From Escherichia phage P-GXEC-L2P5, in sequence record PQ843332.1: DNA of 64,000 bases. One strand, written 5' to 3'. The translations under genes and the position numbers were made by a program. Under the pieces are notes generated by a model. It did no database searches. It saw nothing but the letters and a program-made list of their open reading frames with translations, and had not been told where the DNA came from. This document shows positions 605 to 61,667 of this stretch, in pieces; positions within the stretch are counted from its first letter, which is position 1, and each line of letters starts with the position of its first letter.

Positions 605-3401
605 ATGGCAGATCAAGCAGCAGGCATCACGCTAAAGGCGGATGTCGCACAAATCAGAACGGCGAATACTGTGCTTGATTCATTCGCACAGAAATCCGAG
701 AACACAGAAAACAAGGTTAAGAAATTAAACGACACACTCGGCAAATCCAAAAAGGTTACGAGTGACGCCGCGGGTGGAATGGAGAAGCTGGCGACTGAAT
801 CGCAGCGCGCCGCAGATGGCATGACGAAACAGGAGCGACTTGCCAACAGGTTAGGCATGTCGACCAAAAACCTGGGCTTTGCCTCGCGTAACGCCGCATT
901 CCAGTTACAGGATATCGCAGTTACGCTTGAGATGGGGATGCCAGTTCACCGCGTCATGCTTCAGCAGTTACCACAGCTTACCGGGGCGTTCGGTGGATTG
1001 GGTAACACGCTGCGTTATGTTGCGGGCTTCCTCGGTCCGGTAGGGATCGGCATTGCAGCACTAACGGCAACGTTAGGCGTAGGAGTGGCGGTTACGTCCC
1101 GTGCCGAAAACCAGGTCGCAGCGCTTAACAAGACGCTGGCGCTGTCGGGTAACATTTCCGGACTCACTGCAAACCAGATCCTGGTGCTATCCGAGAACGC
1201 CGAGCGCATGGGCGGGTCGTTCCGCAAGACGCGTGACACAATCCAGGCGCTGGCGGCGGCGGGTGTGAAAGCGGGTGGTGACTTCGGCGCACTGGCGACC
1301 GCAAGACGCGTGACACAATCCAGGCGCTGGCGGCGGCGGGTGTGAAAGCGGGTGGTGACTTCGGCGCACTGGGGAAGGTAGTGAATGACTTCGCGAAGGT
1401 GTCCAGCCAGCCGATCGAGGATGTGGTCGCGGCGGTGGCGAAGCTGTCAACCGACCCGGTAGGCGGCTTACGGGCATTGGCGGATAAGTATCACGTCGTA
1501 AACGAAGCGCAGATCCAGCAGGTGCAGTCACTAGTGACGGCTGGTCGCGAAACCGAAGCGGTGGCGCTGGCTAACAAAACAGCCGCGGCGTCGTTTACCA
1601 CTATGACCAACGATATTAAGTCCAACATGGGTACGCTTGAGCGGTCGATGAACGTCGTTACATCGGCAGCTAAATCTATGTGGGACGCCATCCTGGATGT
1701 GGGCCGCGCGCAGTCCTCGAATGAGTCAGAGATGAAAGCGCGTGAATCATTGCAGCGACTGACCACGGCTTACTATGCCGAGATGAAAGCGGTCAACGCT
1801 GCCGGTGGGGTGATGACCGAAGCGCAGAAAGCACGTATTAACATGCTTTATAGCGAAATGGTCGCCCAGGAGAAAGTAGTCGCGTCGCTCACCCTGCGCA
1901 ACCGTGCAGAGCGTGACAACGCCAACGCCGCGGAACAATCAGCAAAGGCGAACGAGGAGGCAAACCGCACTGCCCGCGACCGCGCCGCGTTTGAGAAGGA
2001 GTACGCAACCAACGCTAAGCGGCGCGCCGACGAGATCGCCCGCCTCAATTTGCTTAATAAGCGCGGCGTGATTGACGAGAAAGAGCTTGCCGAGGCGGTG
2101 AAGCAGGTAAACGAGCGTTACAAAGACCCCGCCCCGAAGAAGGCCGCCGCTGTTCGAGTCGATGCCGGGCTGAAAATGCTGGAAGTCGCGCGAAGCGAAC
2201 TGGCACAGCTTCGTGAGTCTGGAAAGCAGATCGAAGCCAACTCCTCGACGCAGACCCGAACGCAACGCGCTCAAGCGGCCCTAAACAAGCTGATCGCGGA
2301 TAATGAGCAGTTAATCGCAGCAAGCAAAGAAAGAGCACTAACGGCAGCAGAAAAGCAGCAGATGGTCGAATTCGGACGCGTGAAGGAAGTACGCGAGCAG
2401 ATCGTCGAAGAAGCCAAATTGCTGGACGCGAAAGAGAAGCAGGTCAAGGCGCACGCGCAGATCGACTCCTTCGTTAAGAACCAGAACGCCGAGCTAAAAG
2501 CCACCGCGGCGGGCTATGCGCTTTCCACTCGCGAAGCGGCTAACCTGCGCGAAGAATTGCAGCTAATTGACCGCCTTAAGCGGGTGGGCGCTAGTGATAC
2601 CGATATTGATCTGGCGGTGTCTAAACTGCGCGAAGTGCAGGAAGCACAGACCGGTGCTAACGCCTCACTATGGGATGGATTCAGCCGTGGGCTTAAGGAT
2701 AGCGTGGATGAAATGGGTAACGGCTATACGCAGATGACGTCACTCACAAAATTCACGTTCGGCGCTATGCAGGACACGATGAACGAGTTTTTCGAGACTG
2801 GCAAGCTGAACGCAAAGGATATGGTTAAGTCCATCCTGAGCGAATTAATCAAGCTGGCTACCTCGCAGGCGTTCAAGTCCATCGTTAGCGCTTTCGGTGG
2901 CGACGGCGGCAAAAACGGATTGTTCGGCGCTATCTTCTCGGGCCTCACCAAGAATGCGGACGGCGGAGCGTACGTGGCGACGGCGGCAAAAACGGATTGT
3001 TCGGCGCTATCTTCTCGGGCCTCACTAAGAATGCGGACGGCGGAGCTTACGCAGGGGGCAATCTCGCGGCCTATTCTGGGAAAGTGGTAAGCCAGCCTAC
3101 CTTTTTCAGTTATGGCGTCCAGGCGTTCGCTAAGGGCGCAGGATTGATGGGCGAGGCTGGTCCCGAGGCCATCATGCCGCTGAAGCGCGGGCCGGACGGG
3201 AAACTGGGCGTTGCCGCGTCTGGCGCAGGCGGTGGTATGGTCGTGACGACTAACGTTTACACGGGGACCGGTAAAACGGATACCAGTGTCAGCGGGCCGG
3301 ATCCCCGTACCGCGCAGGCGTTCGGCAAGCAAATCACCGAGGCGGTGAAGGCCGAGATCGTGAAGGCGACGAAACCGGGTGGTGTACTTTACAAACGATG
3401 A
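605..3401 (+). CDS. tail length tape measure protein (frame broken by tandem duplications near 1218-1372 and 2894-3051)
   Basis: ORFs 605-1345, 1342-3090 and 2997-3401 are contiguous; long coiled-coil Ala/Lys/Glu-rich middle; Gly-rich C-terminus; sits upstream of gpM/L/K/I/J-like genes. Confidence 0.75.
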
Positions 3402-3435
3402 TAAAATGGCCCTCACTACAACGTGGGGGCTTTTT

Positions 3436-4112
3436 ATGTCACAAGGTACAATCACACTAACGAAAGGAAGTAAGACCGTCACGGGCGCGGGAACGGCGTT
3501 CCTTAGCGAGATCGGGAAGGTACTCGTATTCGCCCGCATCGACGGCAACGACTACACCGGCAAAATTGCGGCATTCAACTCGAACACGGTCATTACTCTG
3601 AAAGATAACTGGGCCGGTCCGACGAAATCCGGTGCGGCATATGAGCTAATCGAAGCACACGACCCGCGATCAAACGAATGGCCCTATTACTGGCACCGAC
3701 GAAATCCGGTGCGGCATATGAGCTAATCGAAGCACACGACCCACGGTCAAACGAATGGCCCTATTACTGGCACATGCAATTGCAGGGCGGCGGCGACGTG
3801 CAGTTAGCTTTCCGGTCGGAGGAATTGCAATTCGGTAATGGCTACGGACAGAACATCGCGGACGGACCGAACGCAGAAACGAAACAGTTCCCCGTGCAAT
3901 TCGTCGGACTGACTACTGATAAGTGGTGCGACCCTAAACTGGTTTATAACTTTCTGCGCGGTCACTTCGTCAAGCCGTTTGTTGTCACCGCTCCAGATGG
4001 CGAAACAGGTTTATTCGTGGTCGAGCGTTCGAGCTTGTCGTACACTGACAACGGGCACTACACGGCAACTGTGTCCGCCACCCTTAAGACAGCTATTGGA
4101 TTCGTAAGATGA
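3436..4112 (+). CDS. minor tail protein, lambda gpM-like C-terminal domain (frame broken by duplication 3619-3772)
   Basis: ORFs 3379-3726 and 3678-4112; GGAGG-like RBS before ATG 3436; position between tape measure and gpL-like gene. Confidence 0.55.
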
Positions 4113-4897
4113 ATAAACTATATCGCGAGGCGACGCGCTTTGACCCATCGGGACGCGTTCGCCTGATTCACATTGACGCGCAGGACGTGGAGCCTGGCGA
4201 CGGCGCGATCGGCGCGGGCCATCACTATTTTCACTACTGCTTTATTCCGCACACTGCCGAGGATATTGCTGCCGCGGGCGGAGACGAGGACAAGCTAAAG
4301 CCCAAATCTATCTTCTTCGGCGGGCAGGAATTCGAATTCTGGCCCTTCGATTTGTCCGGCCTTAACTTCTCCACATCAACGGCAGCAGAACCGCAGCTAA
4401 CCATCGTTGATATTGGCGGCATAATCACCCGGCTGTCGCTGAATCACGACCAGCTACTGGGCGCGAAGGTTGAAATAATCGACACGTTTGCGAAGTTCCT
4501 GGATAACGGGTCGGATCCAGACCCGACGCAAAAACGTGTCCAGGAGTATTACATCGACTCACAGGTTGGGCGCAATCCAGGCAAGCAGATCACCTTCGCA
4601 TTATCCTCACCCGCGGATATGGAGGGGCAAGTAGTTCCCCGCCGCCAGATCATGAACATGTGCGAATGGGCGCTCAATGGGAAGTACGCCAGCGGGGACG
4701 GCTGCACGTGGAACCTTGCGAAGCCTGGCATCAAGTATTACGACGAGCGAGGTAATGAAGTCATCGCGATGAACATGGACCGATGCGGCGGCTGTTTGTC
4801 CGACTGTTATCTTCGATTTGGGCAAGGGCTTGCGGACCCTAAAGCGGCGGTGCTGGACTTCGGCGGCTTTCCGGGGTCCAGATTAATTAAGGGGTAG
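4109..4897 (+). CDS. minor tail protein, lambda gpL-like
   Basis: Intact 262 aa ORF; C-terminal Cys cluster CGGCLSDC; conserved position; ATGA overlap with upstream gene. Confidence 0.75.
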   Translation: MNKLYREATRFDPSGRVRLIHIDAQDVEPGDGAIGAGHHYFHYCFIPHTAEDIAAAGGDEDKLKPKSIFFGGQEFEFWPFDLSGLNFSTSTAAEPQLTIVDIGGIITRLSLNHDQLLGAKVEIIDTFAKFLDNGSDPDPTQKRVQEYYIDSQVGRNPGKQITFALSSPADMEGQVVPRRQIMNMCEWALNGKYASGDGCTWNLAKPGIKYYDERGNEVIAMNMDRCGGCLSDCYLRFGQGLADPKAAVLDFGGFPGSRLIKG

Positions 4898-4899
4898 TC

Positions 4900-5640
4900 A
4901 TGTTAACGAAGAAGGTTAAAAGCGATATCGCCGCACACGTCGCGGCATGTCTGCCGGAAGAAGCCTGCGGCCTGGTTGTCATGGTGGGCCGCAAACAAGT
5001 TTTTATCCCGTGCGTTAACGTATTCGAAGATCCTACCGGTGCGCGCTCGCGTAAGGACGCGTTTACAATCAGTGATACGGCCTGGATGGATGCTGAGGAT
5101 ATGGGCGATGTCGTTCGCGTAGTCCACTCACACCCAGGTCAGCGCGAGTTAACCCCGTCATTGGGTGACGTCAACGGCTGCAACGGCAGCGGCGTCGTCT
5201 GGACAATTACCAATGAGTATGGCGACTTTATCGAGATCGACCCGGAAGACCCGCCACTGGTGGGTCGCCGATTTGTTCTCGGAATTACGGATTGTTATGG
5301 CCTCGTTATGGACTGGCATAAAAAGCATGGCGTAAACCTGCCAGACTTCCGCGTACCGTACAACTGGTGGGAGACAGGCGAAAACCTGTATATGGACAAT
5401 TGGTATGGAGCGGGCTTCCGGGAGTGTGCGGAGAATACGCCAGGGGCGATGGTCATCATGCAGATTAGCGCGCCAGTGCCTAACCACGCCGGAATCTACC
5501 TTCCGGGCAACCAACTACTACACCATATCTACGGCAGCCTGTCGAGCGTGATCCCCTTCCGGGCAGGATTTTTCCGCGACAATGTGGTTAAATGGGTACG
5601 TCATAAAGACTTACCGTGGGATATCACAGAATGGCAATGA
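4900..5640 (+). CDS. tail assembly protein, lambda gpK-like (JAB/MPN + NlpC/P60 domains)
   Basis: Intact 246 aa ORF; HSHPGQRELTPSLGD (JAMM-like His motif) followed by Cys/His peptidase-like region; position after gpL-like gene. Confidence 0.8.
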   Translation: MLTKKVKSDIAAHVAACLPEEACGLVVMVGRKQVFIPCVNVFEDPTGARSRKDAFTISDTAWMDAEDMGDVVRVVHSHPGQRELTPSLGDVNGCNGSGVVWTITNEYGDFIEIDPEDPPLVGRRFVLGITDCYGLVMDWHKKHGVNLPDFRVPYNWWETGENLYMDNWYGAGFRECAENTPGAMVIMQISAPVPNHAGIYLPGNQLLHHIYGSLSSVIPFRAGFFRDNVVKWVRHKDLPWDITEWQ

Positions 5641-6248
5641 CCACATTTAAATTATACGGCGTCTTAGGGCGTCGTTTTGGTAAAGTGCACAAGCTGGATT
5701 GCTTCACCCCGGGCGAAGGTATCACAGGCCTATGCGTGAAGCTGCCTGGCTTACAGGACTTTCTAATGTCGGCCCACCTGGAAAATATTATGTTCAAGGT
5801 GCGCAAAGGCAATCACACAATGACCGGATACGACGAGTTAGGAGAGTTCCACGGCGACCGCGTAGTTACCATCGCACCGGTTATGACCGGCGCAAAACGC
5901 GGACTAGGCCAATTACTGGCGGGCGTAGCCATCGTGGTGGCGTCGTTCTACACCGGCGGGCTTGCTACTGCCGCTTTCGGAGCTTCCGCCGCGACCGCTG
6001 CCGCTATCGGTACGGCAACGTTTTCGTTCGGGATGTCGATGGCGCTGGGTGGCGTTATGCAATTGCTGTCACCGCAACCGAAAGGATTGCAGACACGGCA
6101 GGACGTGGATAACAAGGCGTCTTATGCGTTCGGCGGACCGGTAAACACGACCGCGCAAGGTACGGCACTTGGTGTATTATGGGGCGAGCGTGAGATCGGC
6201 GGCGCTATTATTTCCGCCGGAATCGTAACCGAGGACTTGAACGAATGA
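5631..6248 (+). CDS. tail assembly protein, lambda gpI-like
   Basis: ORF 5616-6248; N-terminal TFKLYGVLGRRFGK ubiquitin-like region, Gly/Ala-rich hydrophobic C-terminal half; overlaps gpK-like stop. Confidence 0.65.
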   Translation: MAMTTFKLYGVLGRRFGKVHKLDCFTPGEGITGLCVKLPGLQDFLMSAHLENIMFKVRKGNHTMTGYDELGEFHGDRVVTIAPVMTGAKRGLGQLLAGVAIVVASFYTGGLATAAFGASAATAAAIGTATFSFGMSMALGGVMQLLSPQPKGLQTRQDVDNKASYAFGGPVNTTAQGTALGVLWGEREIGGAIISAGIVTEDLNE

Positions 6249-6321
6249 CGATTATCTACGACGTCACAGGCCATAAAGGCGGCGGCGGCAAAGCCGGAAT
6301 CGTAACCGAGGACTTGAACGA

Positions 6322-9300
6322 ATGACGATTATCTACGACGTCACAGGCCATAAAGGCGGCGGCGGCAAACAGCACACCCCACAGGAGACGCCGGACAGCC
6401 TGCATTCGCTGGCTAAAATCCGCATCTTGCTCGCACTGGGCGAAGGTGAGTTCGAAGGCATTACCGACCCTAACGAATTACGGCAGCGCGTATACCTGGA
6501 CGGAACACCGATCCAGAACGCCGACCTGTCAGAAAACTTCCCCGGCGCGCGCGTGGAGTTCCGCCCAGGCACACAGCACCAGGACGTGATCCACGGATTT
6601 TCAGCGGTGGAAAGTGAGCAATCCGTAGGCGTAAAACTGGAAAACGGCACGCCGTGGGTGCGCCAGATTAACGACACCAGTCTTGACGCCGTGCGCATTC
6701 GAATCGGCATTCCGGCCCTGTACACCAACGAAGACAACGGCGACCTGGTGGGCGGGCGCATCGACTACAAAATCGTTGTGTATACGGACAACGCTGATCC
6801 GCGTGAGTTTACCTTCGCTGCCGTTGGTAAAACAATGTCGCTGTACGAGCGCGACCACCGCATCGAGTTACCGCCGAACGTGAATACCGGCTGGCGCGTG
6901 GAAGTTCACCGCACAACGGCAGATTCCACATCGGCGAAAGTGGTGAACGATATTCAGGTACAGTCCATCACTGAGATTATTGACGCCCGCCTGCGTTACC
7001 CGCTAACCGCGCTGTTGTTTGTGGAGTTCGACGCCAAAGCGTTCCAGAACATCCCGCGCGTGTCCATTAAGTGCAAAGGTCGCAAAGTTCTAATACCGAA
7101 CAACTACGACCCGATCAATCATACCTATGCCGGGTACTGGGACGGCACGTTTAAACGCGCATGGACGGATAACCCTGCGTGGCACTGGTACGATATTTGT
7201 ATTACTGAGCGCTTCGGCCTCGGTCGGTTAAACGCGCATGGACGGATAACCCTGCGTGGCACTGGTATGATATTTGTATTACTGAGCGCTTCGGCCTCGG
7301 TCGCCGGATCAAGCCGCAAATGCTAAACAGATATGCGCTCTACCAGATTGCGAAGCGCTGCGATCAACTGGTCAGCGACGGCAACGGCGGGCAGGAAATC
7401 CGATTTAAGAATGATATGTACATCCAGTCGCAGACCGACGCCTGGACCGTGCTTAAGGATTTAGCCGCCATCTTTGCCGGTATGACCTGGTGGGGCAACC
7501 AGATGTTGAATATTGTAAGCGATCAGCCGGTCGCAGCGGTATCGCACACTATCACCAACGCCTCGGTCATTGATGGTCGATTCGACTACGCGTCAGGGAG
7601 CCAGAAAACTCGGTATTCCACGTTCGCTGTAGCATACGGCAACCCGAAGAACCACTATGAAGATGCCATTGCTACGGGACAGCGTGTCGAACTGGTACGC
7701 CGCCATAAGATTAACCGTCTGGATATAACGGCGATCGGCTGTACGCGTGAGTCAGAAGCGCAACGCCGCGGGCACTGGGCGCTAATCTCCAACCAGCTTG
7801 ACCAGCAAGTTAGCTTTAAGGTTGGCATGGAGGGACTTTTCTTTATTCCGGGTAGTGTAGTCGCGATCGCCGATACAAACATTTCTGGCGGCTTCGAGAC
7901 ACGCGGCGGTCGCCTGTTGTCAGATCCTGGCACGCGGACTGTGCTGAACACAGACAGCGAAATCACGTTCCGCCCTGGGGATAAATTCCTGGTACGCACC
8001 GATAGCGGTAATGTGGAGACTCGCGAGATTGCCAGCGTCAACGGCAACAAGGTTACGCTAAAAACCGCACTGGACGCCGACCCGATTCCTGATCAGCCGT
8101 TTTGCGTCGATGGCAACGATATCCAGTTGCAGAAGTTCCGCATCACCGACCTGGAATATGACGACTCTACCAGCACTTTTTCAGTGCGCGGGATCGAATA
8201 CAACGATAGCAAATATGATGCCGTTGATAATGGCGCTCGCCTTGACCCAGGCATCTTTACGCAAGTTCCTGACGGCGTAATGAAGGGGCCGGAGTCCGTG
8301 ACCATTACCCCGTCGCAGATTTCATCGCAAGGCCAGCTAATCACCAACGTGGATATTGTGTTCCCGCCGGTGAAGGATGCCGTTGTTTATGAGATCCAGT
8401 GGCGACGTACCAGCTTGCAGAATATGGCGGTACAGTGGGGAAACGACTGGGTAAACATCCCCCGCACGGCATCGAACGGCGCGCACATCCCTAACGTGTT
8501 CTCCGGTAACTACCAAGCGCGCGTCCGCGCGATCGGTATGGGCGAGATTTCATCCCCGTGGGTGTCGTCCGCTATCACGCCGGTGGAAGGTCGTCTCGGC
8601 GGTCTTAACGCGCCTATCATCACCAACGCGATTTCGGGCCTTCACCAAATTTTGTGGAAGTGGAACCACAACAACGCCGCGACGGATATTTCGTACACCG
8701 AGCTTGAAGTTCGCAAGACGGGTGAAACGGAATGGAAATTCCTAACCAACGTCCCATACCCGGGGTCGGAGTATGCGCAAACGTCGCTGGAGTTCGGCAT
8801 CTATCAGCAGTTGCGCGCCCGTGTAGCGGATAAAATCGGCAACCTGTCGGACTGGTCGGCCCCGTTTGAAGGGCAGGTGAGCAGCAGTTGCGCGCCCGTG
8901 TCGCGGATAAAATCGGCAACCTGTCGGACTGGTCGGCCCCGTTTGAAGGGCAGGTGAGTGACAATGTTGACGAGTACATGAAGGGGCTGGACGACGAGTT
9001 CTTGACTTCTGAGGACGGTAAACGCTTCCAGGAAGCGATCGACACCATGCCGCAAGGCATTTATGAGGCTATGCTCACCGACGCACAGCAATTGTTTAAC
9101 GCCCGCGCCGAGTACAAGGGGATTTATGCAGAAATCTCGGTCGCGTATAACGTGGCGGCAGATGCCCACCAGGCGGTAGCGCAACTGGAAACGTTGATCG
9201 GTACTCGCCTTGACGATGCGGAAGCGGCAATCCACACGTTGCAGACCGCGCAAAGCACGCACGAGCAAGCGTTCGCCCAGTACCAACAAACTGTTGCCGC

Positions 9301-9826
9301 TAAGTTCGGTCAGCAGTCCGCCGCGATCGAGCAGAAGATGACGTCCTCGTTTAACCACTCCGGTGGTAGCGCCACATACAGCCTTAAGGCGGGTGTGACG
9401 TATAACGGTACTTACTATGATGCGGGTATGCAGCTTTCCGTTGTAACGTCGGGCAGCGCGGTTAAATCTCGTATCGCGTTCAAAGCCGACCAGTTCTACA
9501 TCATGCACCCATCTAATGGGTCGCTTTCGTCCGCGTTCATCGTCGACGGAGGACAGGTGTACATCGACACGGCACGAATCAAGAACGCGTCCATTAACTT
9601 CGCACAGATCACGGACACGCTGCGGTCTAATAACTTCGTTGCGGGGTCGTCAGGGTGGAACCTGCCTAAATCGGGTAACGCGGAATTGAACAACGTAACG
9701 GTCCGCGGCAACCTGTACGCCACATCGGGTAACTTCGGGTTTTCTGGTGGGACCGTGACGATCGACAAGACAGGCGTAAACGTGCCGTTACCTGGCGGGG
9801 GGAGGGTGAAAGTCGGGACGTGGTAA
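6322..9826 (+). CDS. host specificity / tail tip protein, lambda gpJ-like (frame broken by duplications near 7151-7304 and 8806-8959; start codon duplicated at 6245 and 6322)
   Basis: ORFs 6322-7326, 7320-8957 and 8888-9826 are contiguous, about 1,100 aa after removing duplicates; conserved gpJ-like N-terminus MTIIYDVTGHKGGGGKQHTP; position after gpI-like gene. Confidence 0.8.
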
Positions 9827-9831
9827 ATGCG

Positions 9832-9853
9832 AAGGGGCCATCCGGCCCCTTTT
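9832..9853 (+). terminator. rho-independent terminator (aaggggccatccggcccctttt), usable on both strands
   Basis: GC stem, short loop, T-run; sits between convergent genes. Confidence 0.6.
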
Positions 9854-10818
9854 CAATACATATTCGGGATGACGAGTAGCGGGGTGGGTACGGCAATATT
9901 TTTACCTGGCATCTGGAATTGCTGCCGTGAGTAGTTGCCGATGACGCGGTTTTTAGCGACGCGCACATTATTACCCGCCATGCGTATTCCGTTCATGCGG
10001 ACGTGGTTATAGCCCCCGTTGTTCTGAATCAGCGCGCCGGTGTATGAAAGCTGGATCAGGCTGTTTCCTATATTCTGGTCGCCCGTGCCGATGTTAATCG
10101 TGCGGTCATATACGAACGGCTTGTTCACCGTCGAGAACGTGACCTGATTCTGGTTATTTGTCATAGTGATCCCGGCCCCTGGCGTGGGTGGTGTATTGTT
10201 GAATATGACAAGGTCCATGTCCACCGAAGCCGCCACATCGTCGATGCCACCATAGGCCGCGTTGCGGACGATAATACTGCCACCATCGAAGCCTACTGAT
10301 ACGTTGCCGTCATCCCAGCGGGCGAACGGGACACCGCTAACGGGCAAGGCCATACTACCGTTGACGCGTACTCGCTGTGCGTATCGGCAGGTCATTAGCT
10401 TAGACACGTTGGATATGGCGGTGAAGTCCGTCGAGTTCTCCACCAGTAAGCCCGCGTTGCGTGAACCAACCGGCAGCACTTCCATTATGACGCCAGCCCA
10501 TTGTGGTAAGCCAGAGTACGCGCCATACGCATCCTCCCCGCGCAGGGTGATACCACTATTCCCGTTGCGGGTAACAGACGTAACGTAAAACGGGTCGGGA
10601 ATTACCAGGGTCTGGTCGAATACCTCAATCACTTCTACCGGGCGAGTGAGCGCGACGACGACCTGCGACCCCTCCGTAAGCGGGGTGTTAATGGTTAGCG
10701 TCTTGTTGGACTGTGCCCGCTGGTTAAAGCTGGTGCAGTATGCTGGCGCGCGAAGCCCTGCGGTGATCTCCATGCGCGGTCTTCCGTCGTTGTAGTCGAT
10801 AAGTATTCCAGCACCCAT
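9853..10818 (-). CDS. hypothetical protein, Asn/Gly-rich with beta-helix-like repeats; co-transcribed with upstream lipoprotein
   Basis: Intact 324 aa ORF; start overlaps lipoprotein stop; repeated N-x-x-(V/I)-x-N segments; absent from second genome copy. Confidence 0.45.
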   Translation of the reverse strand: MGAGILIDYNDGRPRMEITAGLRAPAYCTSFNQRAQSNKTLTINTPLTEGSQVVVALTRPVEVIEVFDQTLVIPDPFYVTSVTRNGNSGITLRGEDAYGAYSGLPQWAGVIMEVLPVGSRNAGLLVENSTDFTAISNVSKLMTCRYAQRVRVNGSMALPVSGVPFARWDDGNVSVGFDGGSIIVRNAAYGGIDDVAASVDMDLVIFNNTPPTPGAGITMTNNQNQVTFSTVNKPFVYDRTINIGTGDQNIGNSLIQLSYTGALIQNNGGYNHVRMNGIRMAGNNVRVAKNRVIGNYSRQQFQMPGKNIAVPTPLLVIPNMY

Positions 10819-10820
10819 TA

Positions 10821-11042
10821 TTACCACTCCCGTGATTTAACTGATACTGTGCCTGAGAAATTGCCGTCGCTATCTGAAGACAGCCCAGTGAATCGCATGT
10901 CCACATCTCCTGCCGGGACTTTTTGCCCATCAACGTAGCGCAACATGCAGCTACCGTACGCAACCGTAATGCACTCGCCGTTGTTGCGTTCTACGGCGCA
11001 ACCGGATAAAAGAACCGCACAAATCATAATTAAAGTTTTCAT
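10821..11042 (-). CDS. small lipoprotein, candidate Llp/Cor-like superinfection exclusion protein
   Basis: Signal peptide MKTLIMICAVLLSGC with lipobox LSGC; AGGGGA RBS; lies between gpJ-like gene and tail fibre; mature part differs completely from paralogue at 61449-61667. Confidence 0.5.
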   Translation of the reverse strand: MKTLIMICAVLLSGCAVERNNGECITVAYGSCMLRYVDGQKVPAGDVDMRFTGLSSDSDGNFSGTVSVKSREW

Positions 11043-11122
11043 GGTATCATCCCCTATATTTGGTTGAGTTTTAGTATTACACCGCTCAACCAGGATTGCA
11101 ACCAATTTAAGAGGATTTAGCT

Positions 11123-12901
11123 ATGGCAGCGGGTACGCTATCCGTAACGAACAATAGCAAGGCTGTAGTAGGGGTCGGCACAACGTTTACCGCGTTTAAA
11201 GCGGGCGACTTCTTAACGCTGGTGGTAGGACAAGTCCCATACACCGTGGCAATCGCGTCCATTGAAAGCGCAACCGCGCTCACGCTGGTACTGCCGTTCG
11301 ACGGCCCAACGGCAACCGGCCTTGCGTGGGATGGCGTTAAGCGCGATACCATGTCGCTGGCAACGATGGGCGTTACCGTACAGGCCCAAAAAGCATTGCG
11401 CTTGATGATTGCAGATGAAAACAACTGGCGTGCAATCTTCGGCGATGCTGAAGAAATCACAGTCACGCTCCCGAACGGGCAAGTTATGCAGGGTATGTCG
11501 TGGGGCTACCTGTCGTCTTTGCTGAAGGAAGTAGACCCCGTTGAGATGCGCAACCTGCAACAACAAGCCGCCGCATCGGAAGCAGCCGCGCAAGGATTCC
11601 GTAACGAGGCGGAAGGCTTCAAGAACGACGCCAACACCATCAAGACGCAGACCAGCCAACTTAAGGCAGATACGCAGGCTATCAAGGACCAAACGAATCA
11701 GATCAAGACTGACACTGGCGTTATTCGTGATGAAGCCAATACCGCGAAGGAGGACGCGCAATCTGCCCGCACTGCCGCGCAAGGATTTCGCAATGAGGCT
11801 GAACAATTCGCTAATAGTGTTAACCCGGAAAACCTACTTGCGAAGGCCAACAACTTAAGTGATGTTGCGGATGTGGCTGTGGCGCGCGAAAACATTGGCG
11901 TAGACCGCCTAACGCAAAACATAACCAGCGGCGAAACACAAATCAGGACTGCGGCGAAGAATAAATGGATCTTCGTTAAGGAAAATGGCGACTGGGGCGG
12001 GTGGGATAATGCCAACAATAAAGCCATGCCGCTGCCGATTGCATTCGGTGGTACGGGGCGCGGCGATAACGTCGCCGAGTTCCGCCAATTCAAATCAAAC
12101 GGCGACACCCAAGATGGGTTAATCATTACGCAGAACGGGTCTGGATTTGGTGGTGTATGCTGGGGGGATTCCGCCAATAAAGTACGCTGGCGCATGGGGA
12201 TTAACGACGCCGCGGGTAATTTTAAGTTGCACTCATATGACGCGTCGGGCGCGTACCGCGATACCTTTATGGAGATCTCTGGATCGGGGATAAGCGGCAT
12301 GGTGTGTCATCGAGATATCATGGTCCGCCCAACAGAGACAGTTCCAGTGTTGTCTTTCGTCCTAAACAACGGAAAAGCTACCGTCCCGGCTGGTAACGTC
12401 CGCACGATGTGGGATACGGTTAACATCAATAGTAATATAATCTATAAATATTTTGAGAAGGGAGACGGCACTGGCTTCACAGTCAACTGGCCCTCATCTG
12501 GTGGTGTTATTGCCCTCCAGGGTACATCAGGAAGGGACTTTAAGAAAGATATTACCGACGCGGACGTTACAGAAGCGGTTGCACGCATTGAACAAATGCG
12601 CATGGTGCGCTACGTGTATAAGGACGATGTGCAGGAGCGCGTCCGCTTCGGCATCATTGCCGAGGAAGCAGAAGAGATTGCGCCTCAATACATCAAACAC
12701 CGTGAGGAGACGTACGATGTGGAGGTGGACCCCGAGACTAACGCCATCGTCGGGGGTAAGACGCGCGACCGTCCGTCGGTAGACGTTAACCCTATCGTGA
12801 TGGACTTGATGGGGTGCGCACAATATGCGATCGCTGAGTGTAAACGCCTGGCGGCGGAAGTGGAGGATTTGAAAGCCGAGATCGCGGCGTTGAAGAAATA
12901 A
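11123..12901 (+). CDS. tail fibre protein with C-terminal intramolecular chaperone (peptidase S74-like) domain
   Basis: Intact 592 aa ORF; coiled repeat region; C-terminal ...RFGIIAEEAEEIAPQYIK...DLKAEIAALKK resembles the auto-cleaving chaperone domain of endosialidase and L-shaped tail fibres. Confidence 0.7.
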   Translation: MAAGTLSVTNNSKAVVGVGTTFTAFKAGDFLTLVVGQVPYTVAIASIESATALTLVLPFDGPTATGLAWDGVKRDTMSLATMGVTVQAQKALRLMIADENNWRAIFGDAEEITVTLPNGQVMQGMSWGYLSSLLKEVDPVEMRNLQQQAAASEAAAQGFRNEAEGFKNDANTIKTQTSQLKADTQAIKDQTNQIKTDTGVIRDEANTAKEDAQSARTAAQGFRNEAEQFANSVNPENLLAKANNLSDVADVAVARENIGVDRLTQNITSGETQIRTAAKNKWIFVKENGDWGGWDNANNKAMPLPIAFGGTGRGDNVAEFRQFKSNGDTQDGLIITQNGSGFGGVCWGDSANKVRWRMGINDAAGNFKLHSYDASGAYRDTFMEISGSGISGMVCHRDIMVRPTETVPVLSFVLNNGKATVPAGNVRTMWDTVNINSNIIYKYFEKGDGTGFTVNWPSSGGVIALQGTSGRDFKKDITDADVTEAVARIEQMRMVRYVYKDDVQERVRFGIIAEEAEEIAPQYIKHREETYDVEVDPETNAIVGGKTRDRPSVDVNPIVMDLMGCAQYAIAECKRLAAEVEDLKAEIAALKK

Positions 12902-12905
12902 ATAG

Positions 12906-12930
12906 AAGGGGCCATGCGGCCCCTTTTTTA
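12906..12930 (+). terminator. rho-independent terminator (aaggggccatgcggcccctttttta), bidirectional
   Basis: Perfect GC stem plus T-run between convergent genes. Confidence 0.65.
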
Positions 12931-13580
12931 GTTTGAGTTTTCCCAGTCCATTTTGCGCCGCACCAGATGGCTTTCGTAATATTCCTTGCCCTCAACTTCC
13001 ACTAAGGGCCAATCGTTAACAATCACGTACGGTTCCGCAATATCCTCAATCACGCCGTGCGCGCTTTGCGGCCCTAACGACACGCCCACCAGGATAACAC
13101 CGGCAACACGACGGGCAAGATACTCACGAGCGCAGCGCGCCTCTACCAGTCCGCGACGGATGCCGCTGGTGGCCTTAACTTCGTAGGTCCATACGGCATC
13201 GATCACATGCTCGCGGAAGTCGGGACCGGACTTCACCTTGCGCTTGCCGACCATGATGATATCGCCGCGACGGCATCGATCACATGCTCGCGGAAGTCGG
13301 GACCGGACTTCACCTTGCGCTTGCCGACCATGATGATATCGCCGCGGTCAATGGTATTGGCGCTAAACAGGCCGGTACGCATGAGCAAGCCTTGAGGAAT
13401 ACAACTGCGCCCTCCTGCCTGCCCTTCAAGATACATGCCTGCAAACATCTCGCCCAGCACACCGACCAGTCGGCTTTGCTTGCACGCGTCAGACTTTAAG
13501 CGCCACTGGTCAAACTCGATGCTTGCTATCATTGCCGCCAGGTGGAATTGTTTACCGGATATTTCATATTCGCCGTACAT
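12928..13580 (-). CDS. hypothetical protein, possible PD-(D/E)xK-type nuclease fold (frame broken by duplication near 13195-13345)
   Basis: ORFs 13233-13580 and 12928-13254 are contiguous; GDII...YEVK resembles D...(E)xK; homologue at 63627-64000. Confidence 0.3.
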
Positions 13581-13622
13581 CGTGTGGTCCTCATTGATGC
13601 GGGCCGAAGCCCTCGATTAGAA

Positions 13623-14297
13623 TTATTTCAGTGCGCCAGTCACCAGTGTTTTTTCCATGTTGCGGAAATCTTCCGGCGTCATGAGGATTTTCGATCCGTC
13701 CTCGCCAGTGAGCACGACCATAGGCTGGACGTCCTGATCTGCGATGCCAAAATTAGCGGCTTTAACAGTCTTGCCCACAGATGAAGAAGGATGCCGCGTC
13801 CCGGCGGAGGCGATGGGCCGGCCTTTGAGGCTGTCGAATTGTGCTGCCGTTGTATCGATCTGAATCTCGTCATGTACGGTCATGTAAGACTCGCCCAGCA
13901 GGGCGGCATACCGAATTGTGCTGCCGTTGTATCGATCTGAATCTCGTCATGTACGGTCATGTAAGACTCGCCCAGCAGGGCGGCATACGCCACCAGATCC
14001 ACGATGTTATCTTCCTGGTGCTTACGGTGCTGGCGCACCAGCTTCAGGCAGATCAGGAAGGTCCAGGCTTCTTGCTCTGTAAGTTATCTTCCTGGTGCTT
14101 ACGGTGCTGGCGCACCAGCTTCAGGCAGATCAGGAAGGTCCAGGCTTCTTGCTCGGACAGGTCGCGACCGGTAATCGCGTTAAACACGGCCGCGATTTGT
14201 TTAGCGCTGCGTTCTTCTTTCGCGTTGTCATAGCCGTTTTCTTTCCCGCGCTGTTCCATAGTGGTGGCGGCGTTTTTGCAGTATTCGTATGCTTTCA
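13623..14297 (-). CDS. hypothetical protein (frame broken by duplications near 13835-13985 and 14005-14158)
   Basis: Removing the duplicated units joins ORFs 14053-14340 and 13623-13883 into one ~175 aa frame; GTG start with AAGGG RBS near 14297. Confidence 0.35.
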
Positions 14298-14348
14298 CAG
14301 TATTACCCTTTTTAGTGAAGGGGCGGTATTGCCCCGACACGTTTACTA

Positions 14349-14370
14349 TAGTGCAACCAACCTATTGGTT
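14349..14370. promoter_or_regulatory. perfect palindrome TGCAACCAA-TAGG-TTGGTTGCA (operator or intercistronic hairpin)
   Basis: 9-bp perfect inverted repeat seen directly; overlaps the stop codon of the HAD-like gene; same TTGGTTGCA core recurs in other intergenic regions. Confidence 0.5.
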
Positions 14371-14909
14371 GCAAGTGAATTTTGCAACGTTTATTGCGTA
14401 AATTTTCGGGACCAAATCACCACACGCCCGACGAATTGCCGCGATGTTCTTCTCGCAATCTTCAATGATGACCAGTTCAGACACGTCCGCGTAGCAGACC
14501 ATTTTGAACACGGCGCACGCTTTAAACTCAGGCGGCGTTCAATGATGACCAGTTCAGACACGTCCGCGTAGCAGACCATTTTGAACACGGCGCACGCCTT
14601 AAACTCTGGCGGCGGGGTGTCGTCCAGCATGTGGCGCATAAACAACCGGCCTACGGGGAAGACCTCCAATTGCTCGGCGGTGGTGTCCCAGCATTCTCGC
14701 TGCCGGTTGGTCAGATATGCGATCTCGAAGCCTTGCTCTTTATACATGCGCAGTAGCGGCAGCATATCCATGTTCAGGTCTTCGCGGACGTGCGCCTTGT
14801 GCCACTTCGCCCAAAAGGTGGATTTAGTTTTTATCCCCGGCACCAGGTCGGCGCGCGCATCGCTTGATCCATTAATAACGCCATCCAGGTCACAAATCAG
14901 TAATTTCAT
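14356..14909 (-). CDS. HAD-superfamily phosphatase (polynucleotide 3'-phosphatase / nucleotidase-like); frame broken by duplication near 14460-14615, start duplicated near 14853-15005
   Basis: N-terminal MKLLICDLDGVI (HAD motif I DxDG), downstream YLTNR and Lys motifs; GAGGAA RBS. Confidence 0.55.
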
Positions 14910-14999
14910 TTCAATTCCTCAATCAAATTTGCACGAACAATTGATCCATTAATAACGCCATCCAGATCACAAATCAGTAATTTCATTTCAATTCCTCAA

Positions 15000-15182
15000 T
15001 CAAATTTGCACGAACACTACGGGCGGAAAACGTGTCACACACACAAGATGACAGCGGGCAGTCATTACAAGCCAGCCAGTAAGGTCCATGCCCAGGATGT
15101 GTTCCGGACGTGACACACGACGCACTTTGTTCTCCCTCGGGTTTATTTGGTAGCGTTTAACAATTTCGTCCACGACGCGCAT
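15000..15182 (-). CDS. hypothetical small protein (60 aa)
   Basis: ATG at 15182 follows the Dam-like stop; ends TGA at 15000; contains a Cys/His cluster. Confidence 0.3.
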   Translation of the reverse strand: MRVVDEIVKRYQINPRENKVRRVSRPEHILGMDLTGWLVMTARCHLVCVTRFPPVVFVQI

Positions 15183-15189
15183 ACTGCGA

Positions 15190-15752
15190 TCAACGACTAA
15201 GATATTCAAGGAGTTCTCCTTCGCTCATTATTTCAATTTGTGCGCTGCCGGTGGGCGGCGCTTCGTCAAAGATTATCAATTGCTGGCACTTGTTATTGCT
15301 CGGCCCGTTTCAATTTGTGCGCTGCCGGTGGGCGGCGCTTCGTCAAAGATTATCAATTGCTGGCACTTGTTATTGCTCGGCCCGACTTCGCCGGTTACAG
15401 CATGTATGAATCGGATCCGCCAGTCCAGAAGAATTATCAGGTTTGCAGTCTTCCGGGCCAGCTTCGCCCACTTCGTCGACGTGTCCTGATTCAGTAGCAT
15501 GACGGTCCGGCGTCCGTGCGCCGCGCACTCGACCCACGGCAGCGGATCGGAATACGGCGGGTTGCACCACTTCCACCCTTTCAACTCTGACCAGTCCGCA
15601 TCGAGCGCGCTGTGCTCTGCCGTGAAGTAACGCGGTAGCAGGTGGTTGGCATCGCTCGCCGCCATGTCATAACGGAATCTGTACTTCCGGCGCAGCGGTT
15701 TAAATAAAGCTGGCGGCGTGCGCCAGCTATCTTTTTGCTCACTCTTCTGCAT
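15190..15752 (-). CDS. DNA N6-adenine methyltransferase, phage Dam-like (frame broken by duplication near 15231-15382; start duplicated 15752/15829)
   Basis: WRTPPALF N-terminus and NPPY catalytic motif typical of phage Dam family. Confidence 0.65.
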
Positions 15753-15815
15753 GATCGGTACTTCCGGCGCAGCGGTTTAAATAAAGCTGGCGGAGTGCGC
15801 CAGCTATCTTTTTGC

Positions 15816-16280
15816 TCACTCTTCTGCATGGTCTGTGTCTATCGCATAAAGTGGAGTCTTACCACCTTTATTGATGACGCGCTGCACGCGCTTTGCTTCT
15901 TCGACACTAAGCGGGCGCGCGTTATGGTAGATGCTGCCGTTTGTAGGGTTGCGCCACGCCATGAGCACAAGGTCTTTACGGTCGATCTTCGTTGTGCGAC
16001 CTTTTGGGCGCACGTACTCCTCGGCACGTTTGCAATGCTCGCGCAAACCTTCGGCAGTGATGCGGTTTAGTGCAACGCTGGTTGTGTATCCGGTGCGCTG
16101 CATAATCCCCATCAATTCGAAAAGCAGTTCGAAACGCTCCTCTAGCTCCTGGCGCACTTTCTTCTCTCCTTCATATAGCGCCTGGTTGGTGTCAGCCACC
16201 GCGTTCGCACGTTCGGCCTGTTCGCGGGCTTCGAGGCATTGCGCGGCCCAGTAATTTTTCTCTTCTTGTAAAATTTTCAT
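15816..16280 (-). CDS. hypothetical protein with N-terminal coiled coil
   Basis: 154 aa ORF; stop overlaps Dam-like start; terminator immediately upstream. Confidence 0.4.
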   Translation of the reverse strand: MKILQEEKNYWAAQCLEAREQAERANAVADTNQALYEGEKKVRQELEERFELLFELMGIMQRTGYTTSVALNRITAEGLREHCKRAEEYVRPKGRTTKIDRKDLVLMAWRNPTNGSIYHNARPLSVEEAKRVQRVINKGGKTPLYAIDTDHAEE

Positions 16281-53152: not shown

Positions 53153-53186
53153 TAAAATGGCCCTCACTACAACGTGGGGGCTTTTT

Positions 53187-54879: not shown

Positions 54880-54881
54880 CC

Positions 54882-60375: not shown

Positions 60376-60678
60376 ATGGCATTCGGTATCGCAACGTGGG
60401 ACGCGCAAGGACGCCCAAACAACTACGGCATTAAACCGGTAAGCGTGATCGGAAGGATTCATCTTGCGGAAGGACAAAAATCAGGCGCATGGTCATTCCC
60501 TGTACCGGCGGGGATGAAGGTCGGATACGTGGTCGCACTGGATAAAGGCGCGGTCGGGCCAGGACGCAGAATATCTGCCAGCGGGAACACTATCACGGTT
60601 TCCGCGGCAAGTGCAGTAGGTGGCGGGGTTTACTCCGCATCTGAATGTGACGTTATTGTTTTTGTGGAGCGAGCATAA
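60376..60678 (+). CDS. hypothetical protein specific to second copy
   Basis: Intact 100 aa ORF replacing the minus-strand cassette found after gpJ in copy 1. Confidence 0.4.
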   Translation: MAFGIATWDAQGRPNNYGIKPVSVIGRIHLAEGQKSGAWSFPVPAGMKVGYVVALDKGAVGPGRRISASGNTITVSAASAVGGGVYSASECDVIVFVERA

Positions 60679-61429
60679 TGGCTAATTACGGCGCGTTGAT
60701 TGACTTACCAAACGGCAACCCGTTTATCACGCCAGAATCGACGCCGTTTTGTCTCTTCCGCCGTGTGGTTGTTGGGTCTTCGGCTAACGGCACTGCGCAG
60801 TCGGCGGCTGCCGATATTAATTTGGGTGGTGACTACCCTGCAATAGCGTTTGTTAAAACTACGCACACCGCCCAGCCGACCGTCGTAGGGTCTTCTCGCG
60901 TTGGTAATGTGGTGAAGGTGAGCGCCAGCAATCCATTCGGGCAGGGCTTCACGATGACGGCTTACATCTTTGCTATATTCCCACAGACCCTTCCGCGGTG
61001 GGGCTTCGCTATTTGGGATAAGACGGGGAAGCTAGTGCTTACTAATGAGAGTCGCGTACTAAGTCCCTTCCGCGGTGGGGCTTCGCTATTTGGGATAAGA
61101 CGGGGAAGCTAGTGCTTACTAATGAGAGTCGCGTACTGAGCGATTTAGTTACCGTCGGGTCGCCTGGCGCTAACGGGGGGATTAACATTGATCAGACGCT
61201 AAACGGCAGCTACGCCGTCGCACCGGGAATATTGGGGTCTACGCTGATCCGGTTTTTTGTGCAGGGCCAGCCGCAGGTAATATCGGTAACGGCGTACACG
61301 GGGGCCAGATTTGATGGGTCGCGAACTCGTATATCGGCAGCGTCGTCGGGGAACGCCACGGGGGATGTGGTGGGGTATACTAACAACGGCAACGCGATTA
61401 TGGCGATTAACACTGCCAATTATGATTGA
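60678..61429 (+). CDS. hypothetical protein specific to second copy (duplication near 61030-61130)
   Basis: ORFs 60678-61112 and 61112-61429; ATGA-type overlap with upstream gene. Confidence 0.4.
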
Positions 61430-61430
61430 A

Positions 61431-61456
61431 GAAAGCCCCGAAAGGGGCTTATTTGC
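61431..61456 (+). terminator. bidirectional rho-independent terminator (aaagccccgaaaggggctt)
   Basis: Perfect stem between convergent genes. Confidence 0.55.
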
Positions 61457-61667
61457 AGGTTGTGCTTTTGAAATGGTCTACAGACACGTACTGGAAGCTA
61501 AACGGATAACCCGCCCTTAGCATTTTATGCCCGGAGAAGTCCGCAACACCATACACAGGTACCGCATAATCCATGCCGCTATTCTGGTATGTGGCGTCGC
61601 AGACTTTAGCGGGCATGTTGGCACAACCGGACAAAAGAACCGCACAAATCATAATTAAAGTTTTCAT
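61449..61667 (-). CDS. small lipoprotein, second-copy variant with unrelated mature domain
   Basis: Same signal peptide MKTLIMICAVLLSGC as 10821-11042; mature part ANMPAKVCDATYQNSG... is unrelated. Confidence 0.5.
   Translation of the reverse strand: MKTLIMICAVLLSGCANMPAKVCDATYQNSGMDYAVPVYGVADFSGHKMLRAGYPFSFQYVSVDHFKSTTCK

What the first reader, a model, noticed from the sequence alone, without database searches (positions are those of the whole stretch)
9853..11042. Lipoprotein plus 324-aa beta-helix-like protein cassette between gpJ and the tail fibre: candidate receptor-linked superinfection exclusion module
A small lipoprotein (lipobox LSGC) and an overlapping Asn/Gly-rich 324-aa protein form a minus-strand two-gene operon between the gpJ-like gene and the tail fibre, bracketed by bidirectional terminators. 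Small lipoproteins next to receptor-binding genes are known to block the phage's own receptor (the Llp and Cor paradigm). The 324-aa partner has no such precedent and could be an envelope-modifying enzyme.
Basis: partly seen in the sequence, partly recalled or inferred. Interest (0 to 1): 0.65.

Follow-up and report, generated by a model that had tools for sequence, protein, structure and literature searches.

The report
Phage LptD receptor-binding protein plus exclusion lipoprotein
The two genes are the already characterised host-recognition cassette of a Dhillonvirus coliphage: a tail-tip protein that binds the bacterial LptD outer-membrane channel, and a small lipoprotein that blocks that same channel in infected cells, so the finding is real but ordinary.

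Summary

- **The 324-aa ORF.** It more likely starts at ATG 10818, giving 321 aa. It is Pfam DUF6453 and 97% identical over its full length to Oekolampad bas18_0025. That protein is RBPOeko, whose cryo-EM structure bound to the LptDE lipopolysaccharide translocon is solved (PDB 9RPT/9RPW/9RQI). It is therefore the phage's terminal receptor-binding protein, a virion tail-tip component. It is not an envelope-modifying enzyme, and published models show two lectin-like beta-sandwiches, not a beta-helix.
- **The 73-aa lipoprotein.** It is Pfam PF24052 and 99% identical to Oekolampad bas18_0026 (SEOeko). It is homologous to Rtp45, which is solved bound to the periplasmic face of LptDE (PDB 9RPS) and displaces LptD loop 4 so the receptor-binding protein cannot dock.

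Its idea for the partner fails by its own refutation criterion.

A second, diverged pass of the same genome later in the window carries a FhuA/Cor-type module at the same locus. The swap boundaries lie inside J and inside the lipoprotein signal peptide.

Verdict: already known, low interest.

The parts
9639..9826 (+). [quoted passage not shown] This is the allele-specific part that co-varies with the receptor-binding protein and is the presumed docking site for it.
   Evidence: ORF 8888-9826 hits Pfam Phage_Tail_Tip (E 5e-40) and phrog_31 central tail fiber J. Homology between the two genome passes in the window stops at 9638. The J gene is one 1148-aa CDS in Oekolampad. Here it is split into three ORFs by 77-bp assembly duplications.
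9831..9852 (.). GC-rich hairpin (9-bp stem, 4-nt loop) between the convergent stop codons of J and the receptor-binding-protein gene. It is a plausible bidirectional transcription terminator.
   Evidence: Fold of 9815-9870 on both strands: -20.5 and -19.1 kcal/mol, z about -1.8. It is followed by TTTTCAAT on the + strand. It was not reported by the strict consensus scan.
9853..10818 (-). Receptor-binding protein (RBP) of the central tail fibre, specific for the LptD/LptDE outer-membrane LPS translocon. It is 321 aa from ATG 10818; the mechanical ORF from GTG 10827 is 324 aa.
   Evidence: Pfam DUF6453 E 2.4e-121, 405 bits. phrog_1265 E 2e-122. PDB 9RPT_C/9RPW/9RQI 'Tail fiber protein' E 8.6e-208 over residues 1-321. 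312/321 identical to Oekolampad bas18_0025. Cryo-EM and LptD-mutant data are in PMC12685063.
10821..11042 (-). Superinfection-exclusion lipoprotein (73-aa precursor; lipobox LSGC, lipidated Cys15, Ala16 at +2; Cys24/Cys32 pair). It is predicted to bind the periplasmic side of LptDE.
   Evidence: Pfam PF24052 Phage_lipoprotein E 1.5e-21, 76.6 bits. phrog_4281 E 4e-33. 72/73 identical to Oekolampad bas18_0026 = SEOeko. PDB 9RPS_D (Rtp45) E 1.5e-8, with Cys30/Cys38 aligned to Cys24/Cys32. Mechanism in PMC12685063.
11043..11122 (.). 80-nt divergent intergenic region between the lipoprotein start and the lateral tail-fibre start. It is promoter/5'-UTR sequence, conserved between the two alleles, and not a terminator.
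   Evidence: Both flanking genes start here. It is 95% or more identical between the LptD-type and FhuA-type alleles, together with the first 16 codons of the lipoprotein. Only a weak promoter-like match was found and no terminator. It contains an 8-bp stem with a large loop.
60376..61667 (.). Alternative allele of the same locus in the second, diverged pass through the genome. It is a FhuA-type module: two + strand genes (phrog_557 at 60376-60678; phrog_425 at 60678-61429, split by a 77-bp duplication) and a - strand Cor lipoprotein (61449-61667).
   Evidence: phrog_1119 Cor superinfection exclusion protein E 2.7e-27; phrog_557 E 5e-32; phrog_425 E 5e-42 and 1.5e-27. 99.2% DNA identity to phages Gluttony/Pride and 97.6% to the FhuA-dependent JLBYU37.

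Best explanation
The cassette is the terminal-receptor recognition locus of a Dhillonvirus, in its LptD-specific allele.

**The 321-aa protein.** It is the dedicated receptor-binding protein (RBP).
- The loops at its tip insert deep into the lumen of an open state of the LptD barrel of the LptDE LPS translocon. This gives irreversible adsorption and triggers DNA ejection. The binding is shown for the 97%-identical Oekolampad protein.

**The 73-aa protein.** It is encoded just upstream in the same transcription unit.
- It is exported, lipidated at Cys15 and, with Ala at +2, sorted to the inner leaflet of the outer membrane (inferred from the lipobox and the +2 rule).
- There it binds the periplasmic rim of LptDE and pushes a beta-hairpin up the lumen. 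This displaces extracellular loop 4, so LptD can no longer accept the RBP. The mechanism is shown for the 35%-identical Rtp45 and inferred here.
- The result is protection of the infected cell from superinfection, and protection of progeny virions from wasting themselves on receptor in lysed-cell debris.

**The exchangeable unit.** The last ~63 codons of J, the RBP gene and the mature part of the lipoprotein (9639-10994) form one exchangeable unit. The same window contains the FhuA/Cor allele of that unit in a second strain.
For: - **Family membership.** DUF6453 at 405 bits and PF24052 at 76.6 bits, both far above the curated cut-offs.
- **RBP identity.** 97% full-length identity to PDB 9RPT chain C = Oekolampad RBP.
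- **Lipoprotein identity.** 99% identity to SEOeko, and homology to Rtp45 in PDB 9RPS with the disulfide cysteines and a PAG(D/E)VD motif conserved.
- **Gene order.** The order J(+) / RBP(-) / lipoprotein(-) / lateral fibre(+) is identical to Oekolampad.
- **Published genetics.** Oekolampad resistance maps to lptD, and all phages with this module are blocked by lptD loop deletions (PMC8594841).
- **Published structure and biochemistry.** RBPOeko binds LptDE with a 1,700 A^2 interface, LptD point mutants abolish both binding and infection, and Rtp45 binds LptDE and displaces EL4 (PMC12685063).
- **Distribution.** 428 phage records carry RBP homologues and 329 carry lipoprotein homologues, mostly small siphophages of Escherichia, Shigella, Klebsiella and Salmonella.
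- **Modularity within the window.** Homology between the two genome passes breaks at 9638 and resumes at 10995. The intervening DNA is replaced by a FhuA/Cor module.
Against: - Nothing in the data contradicts this explanation.
- No virion proteomics or in-situ tail-tip structure was found showing the RBP attached to J in a Dhillonvirus. The attachment mode is inferred from analogy with T5 pb5 and from co-variation of the J C-terminus.
- The Oekolampad-type lipoprotein itself has never been expressed or tested; expression failed in PMC12685063. Its exclusion function rests on 35% identity to Rtp45 and on context.
- Rtp45's in-vivo exclusion phenotype could not be checked, because the 2006 Rtp paper is not held.
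- The window is a flawed assembly (77-bp duplications, two strains concatenated). The exact linkage of this allele to the rest of the genome is therefore not guaranteed, although slur05 has the same 1.7-kb arrangement at 97.8% identity.
Confidence: 0.93

Rival explanations
1. Both genes form a superinfection-exclusion or 'moron' module expressed for the benefit of the infected cell. The 324-aa protein would be a membrane or envelope-modifying enzyme that alters the receptor or LPS.
For: PHROGs labels phrog_1265 'membrane protein' in the category 'moron, auxiliary metabolic gene and host takeover'. RefSeq records carry the same label. The gene is transcribed opposite to the tail genes and co-oriented with the lipoprotein.
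Against: - No signal peptide or enzyme family hit in Pfam or NCBIfam.
- LptD mutants that abolish infection also abolish binding of that protein in vitro.
- The 'membrane protein' label is an unverified annotation.
Confidence: 0.02
2. Same molecular mechanism, but a different biological purpose for the lipoprotein. Its selected role would be to stop newly released virions being inactivated by LptD in lysed-cell debris, as proposed for T5 Llp, and not to exclude incoming superinfecting phages.
For: - The phage is virulent; no E. coli genome out of 5,426 holds this DNA as a prophage. Long-term immunity of a lysogen is therefore not at stake.
- The lipoprotein is co-transcribed just upstream of a late structural gene.
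- The PNAS paper lists both roles for SE factors.
Against: The two roles are not mutually exclusive and depend on the same receptor blockade. No expression-timing data are available here.
Confidence: 0.4
3. The cassette in this window is an assembly chimera, and the gene pair is not really linked to this J gene and tail fibre.
For: The window carries about 85 tandem duplications of exactly 77 bp. It is 1.4 genome lengths long, made of two diverged strains joined end to end.
Against: - No duplication lies within 8959-13192.
- The whole stretch 9600-11300 is colinear at 97.8% with slur05/slur06. It is colinear at 93-96% with StarDew, SO-1 and Oekolampad, which have the same flanking genes.
Confidence: 0.03

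Closest known systems
Escherichia phage Oekolampad (Bas18, Dhillonvirus) bas18_0025 / bas18_0026 = RBPOeko / SEOeko (PDB 9RPT, 9RPW, 9RQI)
   Same: Same genus, same gene order and orientation. The receptor-binding protein is 97% identical over 321 aa and the lipoprotein 99% identical over 73 aa. The receptor LptD is established genetically and structurally.
   Different: There are nine conservative substitutions in the receptor-binding protein and one (E23D) in the lipoprotein. The upstream part of J is more diverged: the megablast match to Oekolampad starts only at 9680.
Phage Rtp (Drexlerviridae) Rtp44 / Rtp45 (PDB 9RPS for Rtp45-LptDEM)
   Same: Same two-gene module downstream of the J homologue, same families (DUF6453 and PF24052) and same receptor. 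Rtp45 Cys30-Cys38 aligns with Cys24-Cys32 here.
   Different: Only about 33-35% identity. It belongs to a different phage family. The module has moved horizontally between families.
Phage T5 pb5 (oad) / Llp
   Same: Same logic: a dedicated monomeric receptor-binding protein at the tip of the central fibre. Its gene sits next to that of a small outer-membrane lipoprotein, which binds the periplasmic face of the same receptor and prevents RBP binding.
   Different: - The receptor is FhuA, a TonB-dependent transporter.
- Llp acts by long-range allostery, whereas Rtp45 physically displaces LptD loop 4.
- No sequence similarity to pb5 or Llp was detected.
Cor lipoprotein of phi80/N15/T1 and FhuA-dependent Dhillonviruses (phrog_1119)
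   Same: A small SE lipoprotein encoded at the same locus. The Cor allele in the second genome pass of this window shares an identical 16-residue signal peptide and 5' region with the LptD-type lipoprotein.
   Different: The mature parts are unrelated. The first-allele lipoprotein matches the Cor profile only over its signal peptide (residues 1-30, E 1e-3). It targets a different receptor (FhuA).

Membership tests
Pfam PF20051 (DUF6453) / LptD-targeting RBPs of small siphophages | Profile match above the curated gathering score over the full domain | tested here: met
   405 bits against a cut-off of 25; residues 7-300 cover profile positions 1-290 of 291. phrog_1265 E 2e-122.
Pfam PF20051 (DUF6453) / LptD-targeting RBPs of small siphophages | Close sequence relationship to an RBP with an experimentally shown LptDE complex | tested here: met
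   E 8.6e-208 to PDB 9RPT_C. 312/321 identical to Oekolampad bas18_0025, with no gaps.
Pfam PF20051 (DUF6453) / LptD-targeting RBPs of small siphophages | Position directly downstream of the gpJ homologue, ORF of about 930-960 bp, paired with a small lipoprotein gene (criteria used by Maffei et al. and Black et al.) | tested here: met
   The gene lies 26 nt after the J stop on the opposite strand. It is 963 coding nt, and the lipoprotein gene is 2 nt upstream.
Pfam PF20051 (DUF6453) / LptD-targeting RBPs of small siphophages | Physical binding to LptD and dependence of infection on LptD | not testable with these tools
   Shown for the 97%-identical Oekolampad protein only.
Pfam PF24052 (Phage_lipoprotein) / Rtp45-type SE lipoproteins | Profile match above the gathering score | tested here: met
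   76.6 bits against a cut-off of 27; residues 3-73 cover profile positions 8-80 of 80.
Pfam PF24052 (Phage_lipoprotein) / Rtp45-type SE lipoproteins | Lipoprotein signal peptide with a lipobox and an outer-membrane sorting residue at +2 | tested here: met
   MKTLIMICAVLLSG|C with Ala16 at +2. Outer-membrane sorting is inferred from the +2 rule.
Pfam PF24052 (Phage_lipoprotein) / Rtp45-type SE lipoproteins | Conserved disulfide cysteine pair and beta-strand segment that pairs with LptD in Rtp45 (Cys30-Cys38, residues 30-35) | tested here: met
   The phmmer alignment to 9RPS_D places Cys24 and Cys32 opposite Cys30 and Cys38. VPAGDVDMRF aligns with VPAGEVDVRY.
Pfam PF24052 (Phage_lipoprotein) / Rtp45-type SE lipoproteins | Expression blocks adsorption or plating of the cognate phage | not testable with these tools
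   Not shown even for SEOeko, whose expression failed. Only structural evidence for Rtp45 is available.
Cor superinfection-exclusion family (phrog_1119) | Profile match over the mature protein | tested here: not met
   E 1.1e-3, residues 1-30 only, which is the signal peptide. By contrast, the second-allele lipoprotein at 61449-61667 matches full length at E 2.7e-27.
   - No enzyme or beta-helix family appears in Pfam or NCBIfam.
- My own AF2 single-sequence model was uninformative (pLDDT 28.7).
[quoted passage not shown]

The most novel reading that the evidence does not exclude
The most novel reading left open concerns the Oekolampad-type lipoprotein. It has never been produced or tested and is only about 35% identical to Rtp45, so it might block LptD by a different contact mode, or have an additional effect on LPS export. 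Separately, the precise swap joints seen here may be conserved recombination 'sockets' that small siphophages use to exchange receptor specificity. These joints lie inside the lipoprotein signal peptide, right after Cys15-Ala16, and about 63 codons before the end of J. Such sockets could be exploited directly for engineering designer phages.
Probability: 0.12. Interest if true: 0.35.

Novelty: already known. Interest (0 to 1): 0.08.

Why it matters
As a discovery it matters little. The locus type was defined in 2021 (BASEL collection), and both protein families were structurally explained in 2025.

It has practical value for annotation.
- The window's phage can be assigned LptD as its terminal receptor in silico.
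- The widespread database labels 'membrane protein / moron' (PHROG 1265, RefSeq) and 'DUF6453' for this family are misleading and should read 'LptD-binding receptor-binding protein'.

The co-occurrence in one assembly of two Dhillonvirus strains that differ at this locus (LptD versus FhuA allele) illustrates modular receptor switching. The breakpoints are clean.

Tried and rejected
1. **Single-sequence AlphaFold2 of the receptor-binding protein.** I ran it to test 'beta-helix-like'. The model was useless (pLDDT 28.7, pTM 0.17), so no fold search was run.
2. **Consensus promoter/terminator scan of 9500-11400.** It found no terminators and only chance-level promoter matches. The 9831-9852 hairpin was found only by folding.
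3. **E. coli complete genomes.** No match to the cassette. It is therefore not a prophage moron.
4. **NCBIfam.** No family for either protein.
5. **The 2006 Rtp paper (PMC1367250).** I wanted it to check an in-vivo exclusion phenotype of Rtp45, but it is not held.
6. **Rejected readings.**
   - Envelope-modifying enzyme: no enzyme signature, and a solved receptor complex exists.
   - Cor or Llp membership for the first lipoprotein: only a signal-peptide match.
   - Assembly artefact: the stretch is colinear with many complete phage genomes.

Full report
**What is there**

ORF listing of 5000-16000 and direct reading of the minus strand confirm two co-oriented minus-strand genes. They lie between the end of a J-like tail-tip gene (stop at 9824-9826) and the start of a 592-aa lateral tail-fibre gene (11123-12901; phrog_1980 and a Peptidase_S74 chaperone domain).

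- **Upstream gene (10821-11042).** It encodes a 73-aa precursor, MKTLIMICAVLLSG|CA..., with a canonical lipobox and Ala at +2.
- **Downstream gene.** It runs to 9853. The mechanical ORF starts at GTG 10827 (324 aa, overlapping the lipoprotein stop by 7 nt). The ATG at 10818 has a GGGAG Shine-Dalgarno about 10 nt upstream and matches the annotated start of all characterised homologues. That start gives 321 aa and a 2-nt spacer.
- **Composition.** The protein has 10.3% Gly, 9.7% Asn and 10.3% Val.
- **3' hairpin.** A 9-bp GC-rich hairpin (9831-9852) fills the gap between the convergent stop codons. It is a plausible two-way terminator, although the consensus scan reported none.
- **5' side.** The region 11043-11122 lies between two divergent start codons. 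It is a control region, not a terminator.

**Where the window comes from**

The 1.7-kb stretch is 97.8% identical to Escherichia phages slur05/slur06. It is 93-96% identical to StarDew, SO-1 and Oekolampad, all Dhillonvirus (HK578/SO-1-like virulent siphophages of about 44-45 kb). It has no match in 5,426 complete E. coli genomes, so it is not a prophage moron.

In Oekolampad the gene order is identical: J-like tail tip protein (+), two minus-strand 'hypothetical proteins' of 321 and 73 aa, then the lateral tail fibre (+).

**What the proteins are**

*The large protein*
- It is Pfam DUF6453 (405 bits; gathering score 25) and phrog_1265.
- Against the PDB it matches one sequence, chain C of 9RPT/9RPW/9RQI, at E 8.6e-208 over its whole length.
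- It is 312/321 identical to Oekolampad bas18_0025.
- That protein is RBPOeko. Dunbar et al. (PNAS 2025, PMC12685063) solved it by cryo-EM bound to the extracellular side of the Shigella/E. coli LptDE translocon.
  - It is inserted deep into the lumen of an open LptD barrel, with an interface of about 1,700 A^2.
  - LptD point mutants that confer resistance to the phage abolish binding in vitro.
- Maffei et al. (PLoS Biol 2021, PMC8594841) had already mapped Oekolampad resistance to lptD. [quoted passage not shown]
- Black et al. [quoted passage not shown] Receptor-contacting loops sit at the tip, and a conserved N-terminal base is thought to attach to the tail. The fold is not a beta-helix.
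- My own single-sequence AlphaFold run failed (pLDDT 28.7).

*The small protein*
- It is Pfam PF24052 'Phage lipoprotein family' (76.6 bits; gathering score 27) and phrog_4281.
- It is 72/73 identical to Oekolampad bas18_0026, named SEOeko.
- It matches PDB 9RPS chain D, Rtp45 of phage Rtp, at E 1.5e-8. Rtp45 Cys30 and Cys38 align with Cys24 and Cys32 here, and a VPAG(D/E)VD motif is conserved.
- In the Rtp45-LptDE-LptM structure, the lipoprotein sits at the periplasmic rim between LptE and LptM. It sends a hairpin up the lumen and displaces extracellular loop 4 by up to 20 A, which is incompatible with docking of the receptor-binding protein.
- SEOeko itself could not be expressed. Its function is therefore inferred from homology and context.
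- The match to the Cor profile (phrog_1119, E 1e-3) covers only the signal peptide. It is not a Cor protein.

**Evidence from inside the window**

- **Assembly flaws.** The window is a flawed assembly. About 85 exact tandem duplications of 77 bp are scattered through it. They look like untrimmed k=77 overlaps. They split J into three ORFs, but none lies between 8959 and 13192.
- **Second genome pass.** Positions 49366-64000 are a second pass over the same genome region as 1-14000, at 85-95% identity. This is a second strain.
- **The FhuA-type allele.** At the equivalent locus the second strain carries a different module. There are two plus-strand genes (phrog_557; phrog_425) and a minus-strand Cor lipoprotein (phrog_1119, E 2.7e-27). 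This module is 99.2% identical to phages Gluttony/Pride and 97.6% identical to JLBYU37, an experimentally FhuA-dependent Dhillonvirus.
- **Breakpoints.** Homology between the two passes stops at 9638, about 63 codons before the end of J. It resumes at 10995, inside the lipoprotein gene. The two lipoproteins share an identical promoter region, 5' UTR and first 16 residues (signal peptide, lipobox, Cys-Ala), and are unrelated thereafter.
- **The exchangeable unit.** It is therefore the J C-terminus, the receptor-binding protein(s) and the mature SE lipoprotein. This is what one expects if the J tip docks the RBP and the lipoprotein is matched to the RBP's receptor.

**Distribution**

tblastn finds homologues of the receptor-binding protein in 428 phage records and of the lipoprotein in 329. 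Most are small siphophages of Escherichia, Shigella, Klebsiella and Salmonella, with identities down to about 30%. This agrees with the reported horizontal spread of the module.

**Mechanism, with shown and inferred steps**

*Shown for near-identical or homologous proteins*
- The receptor-binding protein binds an open state of LptDE through its tip loops.
- lptD loop mutations block both binding and infection.
- An Rtp45-type lipoprotein binds periplasmic LptDE and displaces EL4.

*Inferred here*
- The same holds for this 97%/99%-identical pair.
- The RBP docks on the allele-specific C-terminus of J.
- The lipoprotein is lipidated at Cys15 and sorted to the outer membrane (Ala at +2).
- The lipoprotein serves to prevent superinfection and/or loss of progeny on debris.

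**Comparison and verdict**

The lipoprotein is a receptor-linked exclusion factor in the Llp/Cor sense. It is a member of neither family; it belongs to the Rtp45 family. The pairing has direct precedents (T5 pb5/Llp; Rtp44/Rtp45; Oekolampad).

Nothing here is new. The cassette is an already characterised, structurally solved system, so interest is low. The residual open points are the untested Oekolampad-type lipoprotein, how the RBP attaches to J, and whether the swap joints are conserved.

Noticed in passing
whole window, e.g. 6216-6369, 7151-7303, 8805-8958, 13193-13346, 60988-61137: About 85 tandem duplications of exactly 77 bp (2.0 copies, 94-100% identical) occur every few hundred bases. 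They look like untrimmed k=77 unitig overlaps from an assembler. They frameshift many genes: J is split into 6322-7326 / 7320-8957 / 8888-9826, and the phrog_425 gene is split at 61112.
   Followed up: partly
1-14000 versus 49366-64000: The window (64 kb) is longer than a Dhillonvirus genome (about 44-45 kb). Its last 14.6 kb is a second pass over the same genes as the first 14 kb, at 85-95% identity. Two co-occurring strains appear to have been concatenated into one sequence.
   Followed up: partly
60376-61667: The second strain carries a FhuA-type receptor module at the same locus: phrog_557, phrog_425 and a Cor lipoprotein. It is 99% identical to phages Gluttony/Envy and 97.6% identical to FhuA-dependent JLBYU37. 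The sample therefore held LptD- and FhuA-targeting variants of one phage backbone.
   Followed up: yes
10995-11122 and 61620-61747: The LptD-type and Cor-type lipoproteins share an identical 16-residue signal peptide and lipobox, plus a nearly identical 5' UTR and promoter region. They diverge completely immediately after Cys15-Ala16. The recombination joint sits inside the signal-peptide coding sequence.
   Followed up: yes
11890-12860 versus 62577-63467: The lateral tail-fibre genes of the two strains share only the N-terminal ~170 codons at 91%, then a stretch at 77%. The distal receptor-binding part has no detectable similarity until the C-terminal chaperone region. This is the second hypervariable host-range locus described for Dhillonvirus.
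   Followed up: no
phage records phiEco32 EU330206, AnnaHegner_Bas87 PQ850594, KarlSchell_Bas89 PQ850613: phiEco32-like podoviruses (Kuravirus/Gordonclarkvirinae) hold weak homologues of two proteins, at separate genome positions. One matches the C-terminal ~60% of the receptor-binding protein (24-26% identity). The other matches the lipoprotein (32-43% identity). This may hint at LptD use or exclusion in that group.
   Followed up: no
phage records KX534336 (Gluttony) and LR597646 (Gluttony_ev152); Two records with the same phage name carry different alleles of this locus. 'Gluttony' has the FhuA/Cor type and 'Gluttony_ev152' has the LptD type. This suggests a documented or laboratory-evolved module swap.
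   Followed up: no
phage records GQ502199 (Sodalis phage SO-1), OQ221563 (Acinetobacter phage NJ01), MG065669 (Campylobacter phage A123); Records attributed to non-Escherichia hosts carry this coliphage cassette at 85-96% DNA identity, and the SO-1 lipoprotein is 100% identical. The host labels look doubtful, or the phages were propagated on contaminating E. coli.
   Followed up: no
12928-13254 (-) and 13233-13580 (-): A phrog_10558 gene of unknown function (191-aa profile) lies downstream of the tail fibre. It is split by a 77-bp duplication at 13193-13346.
   Followed up: no
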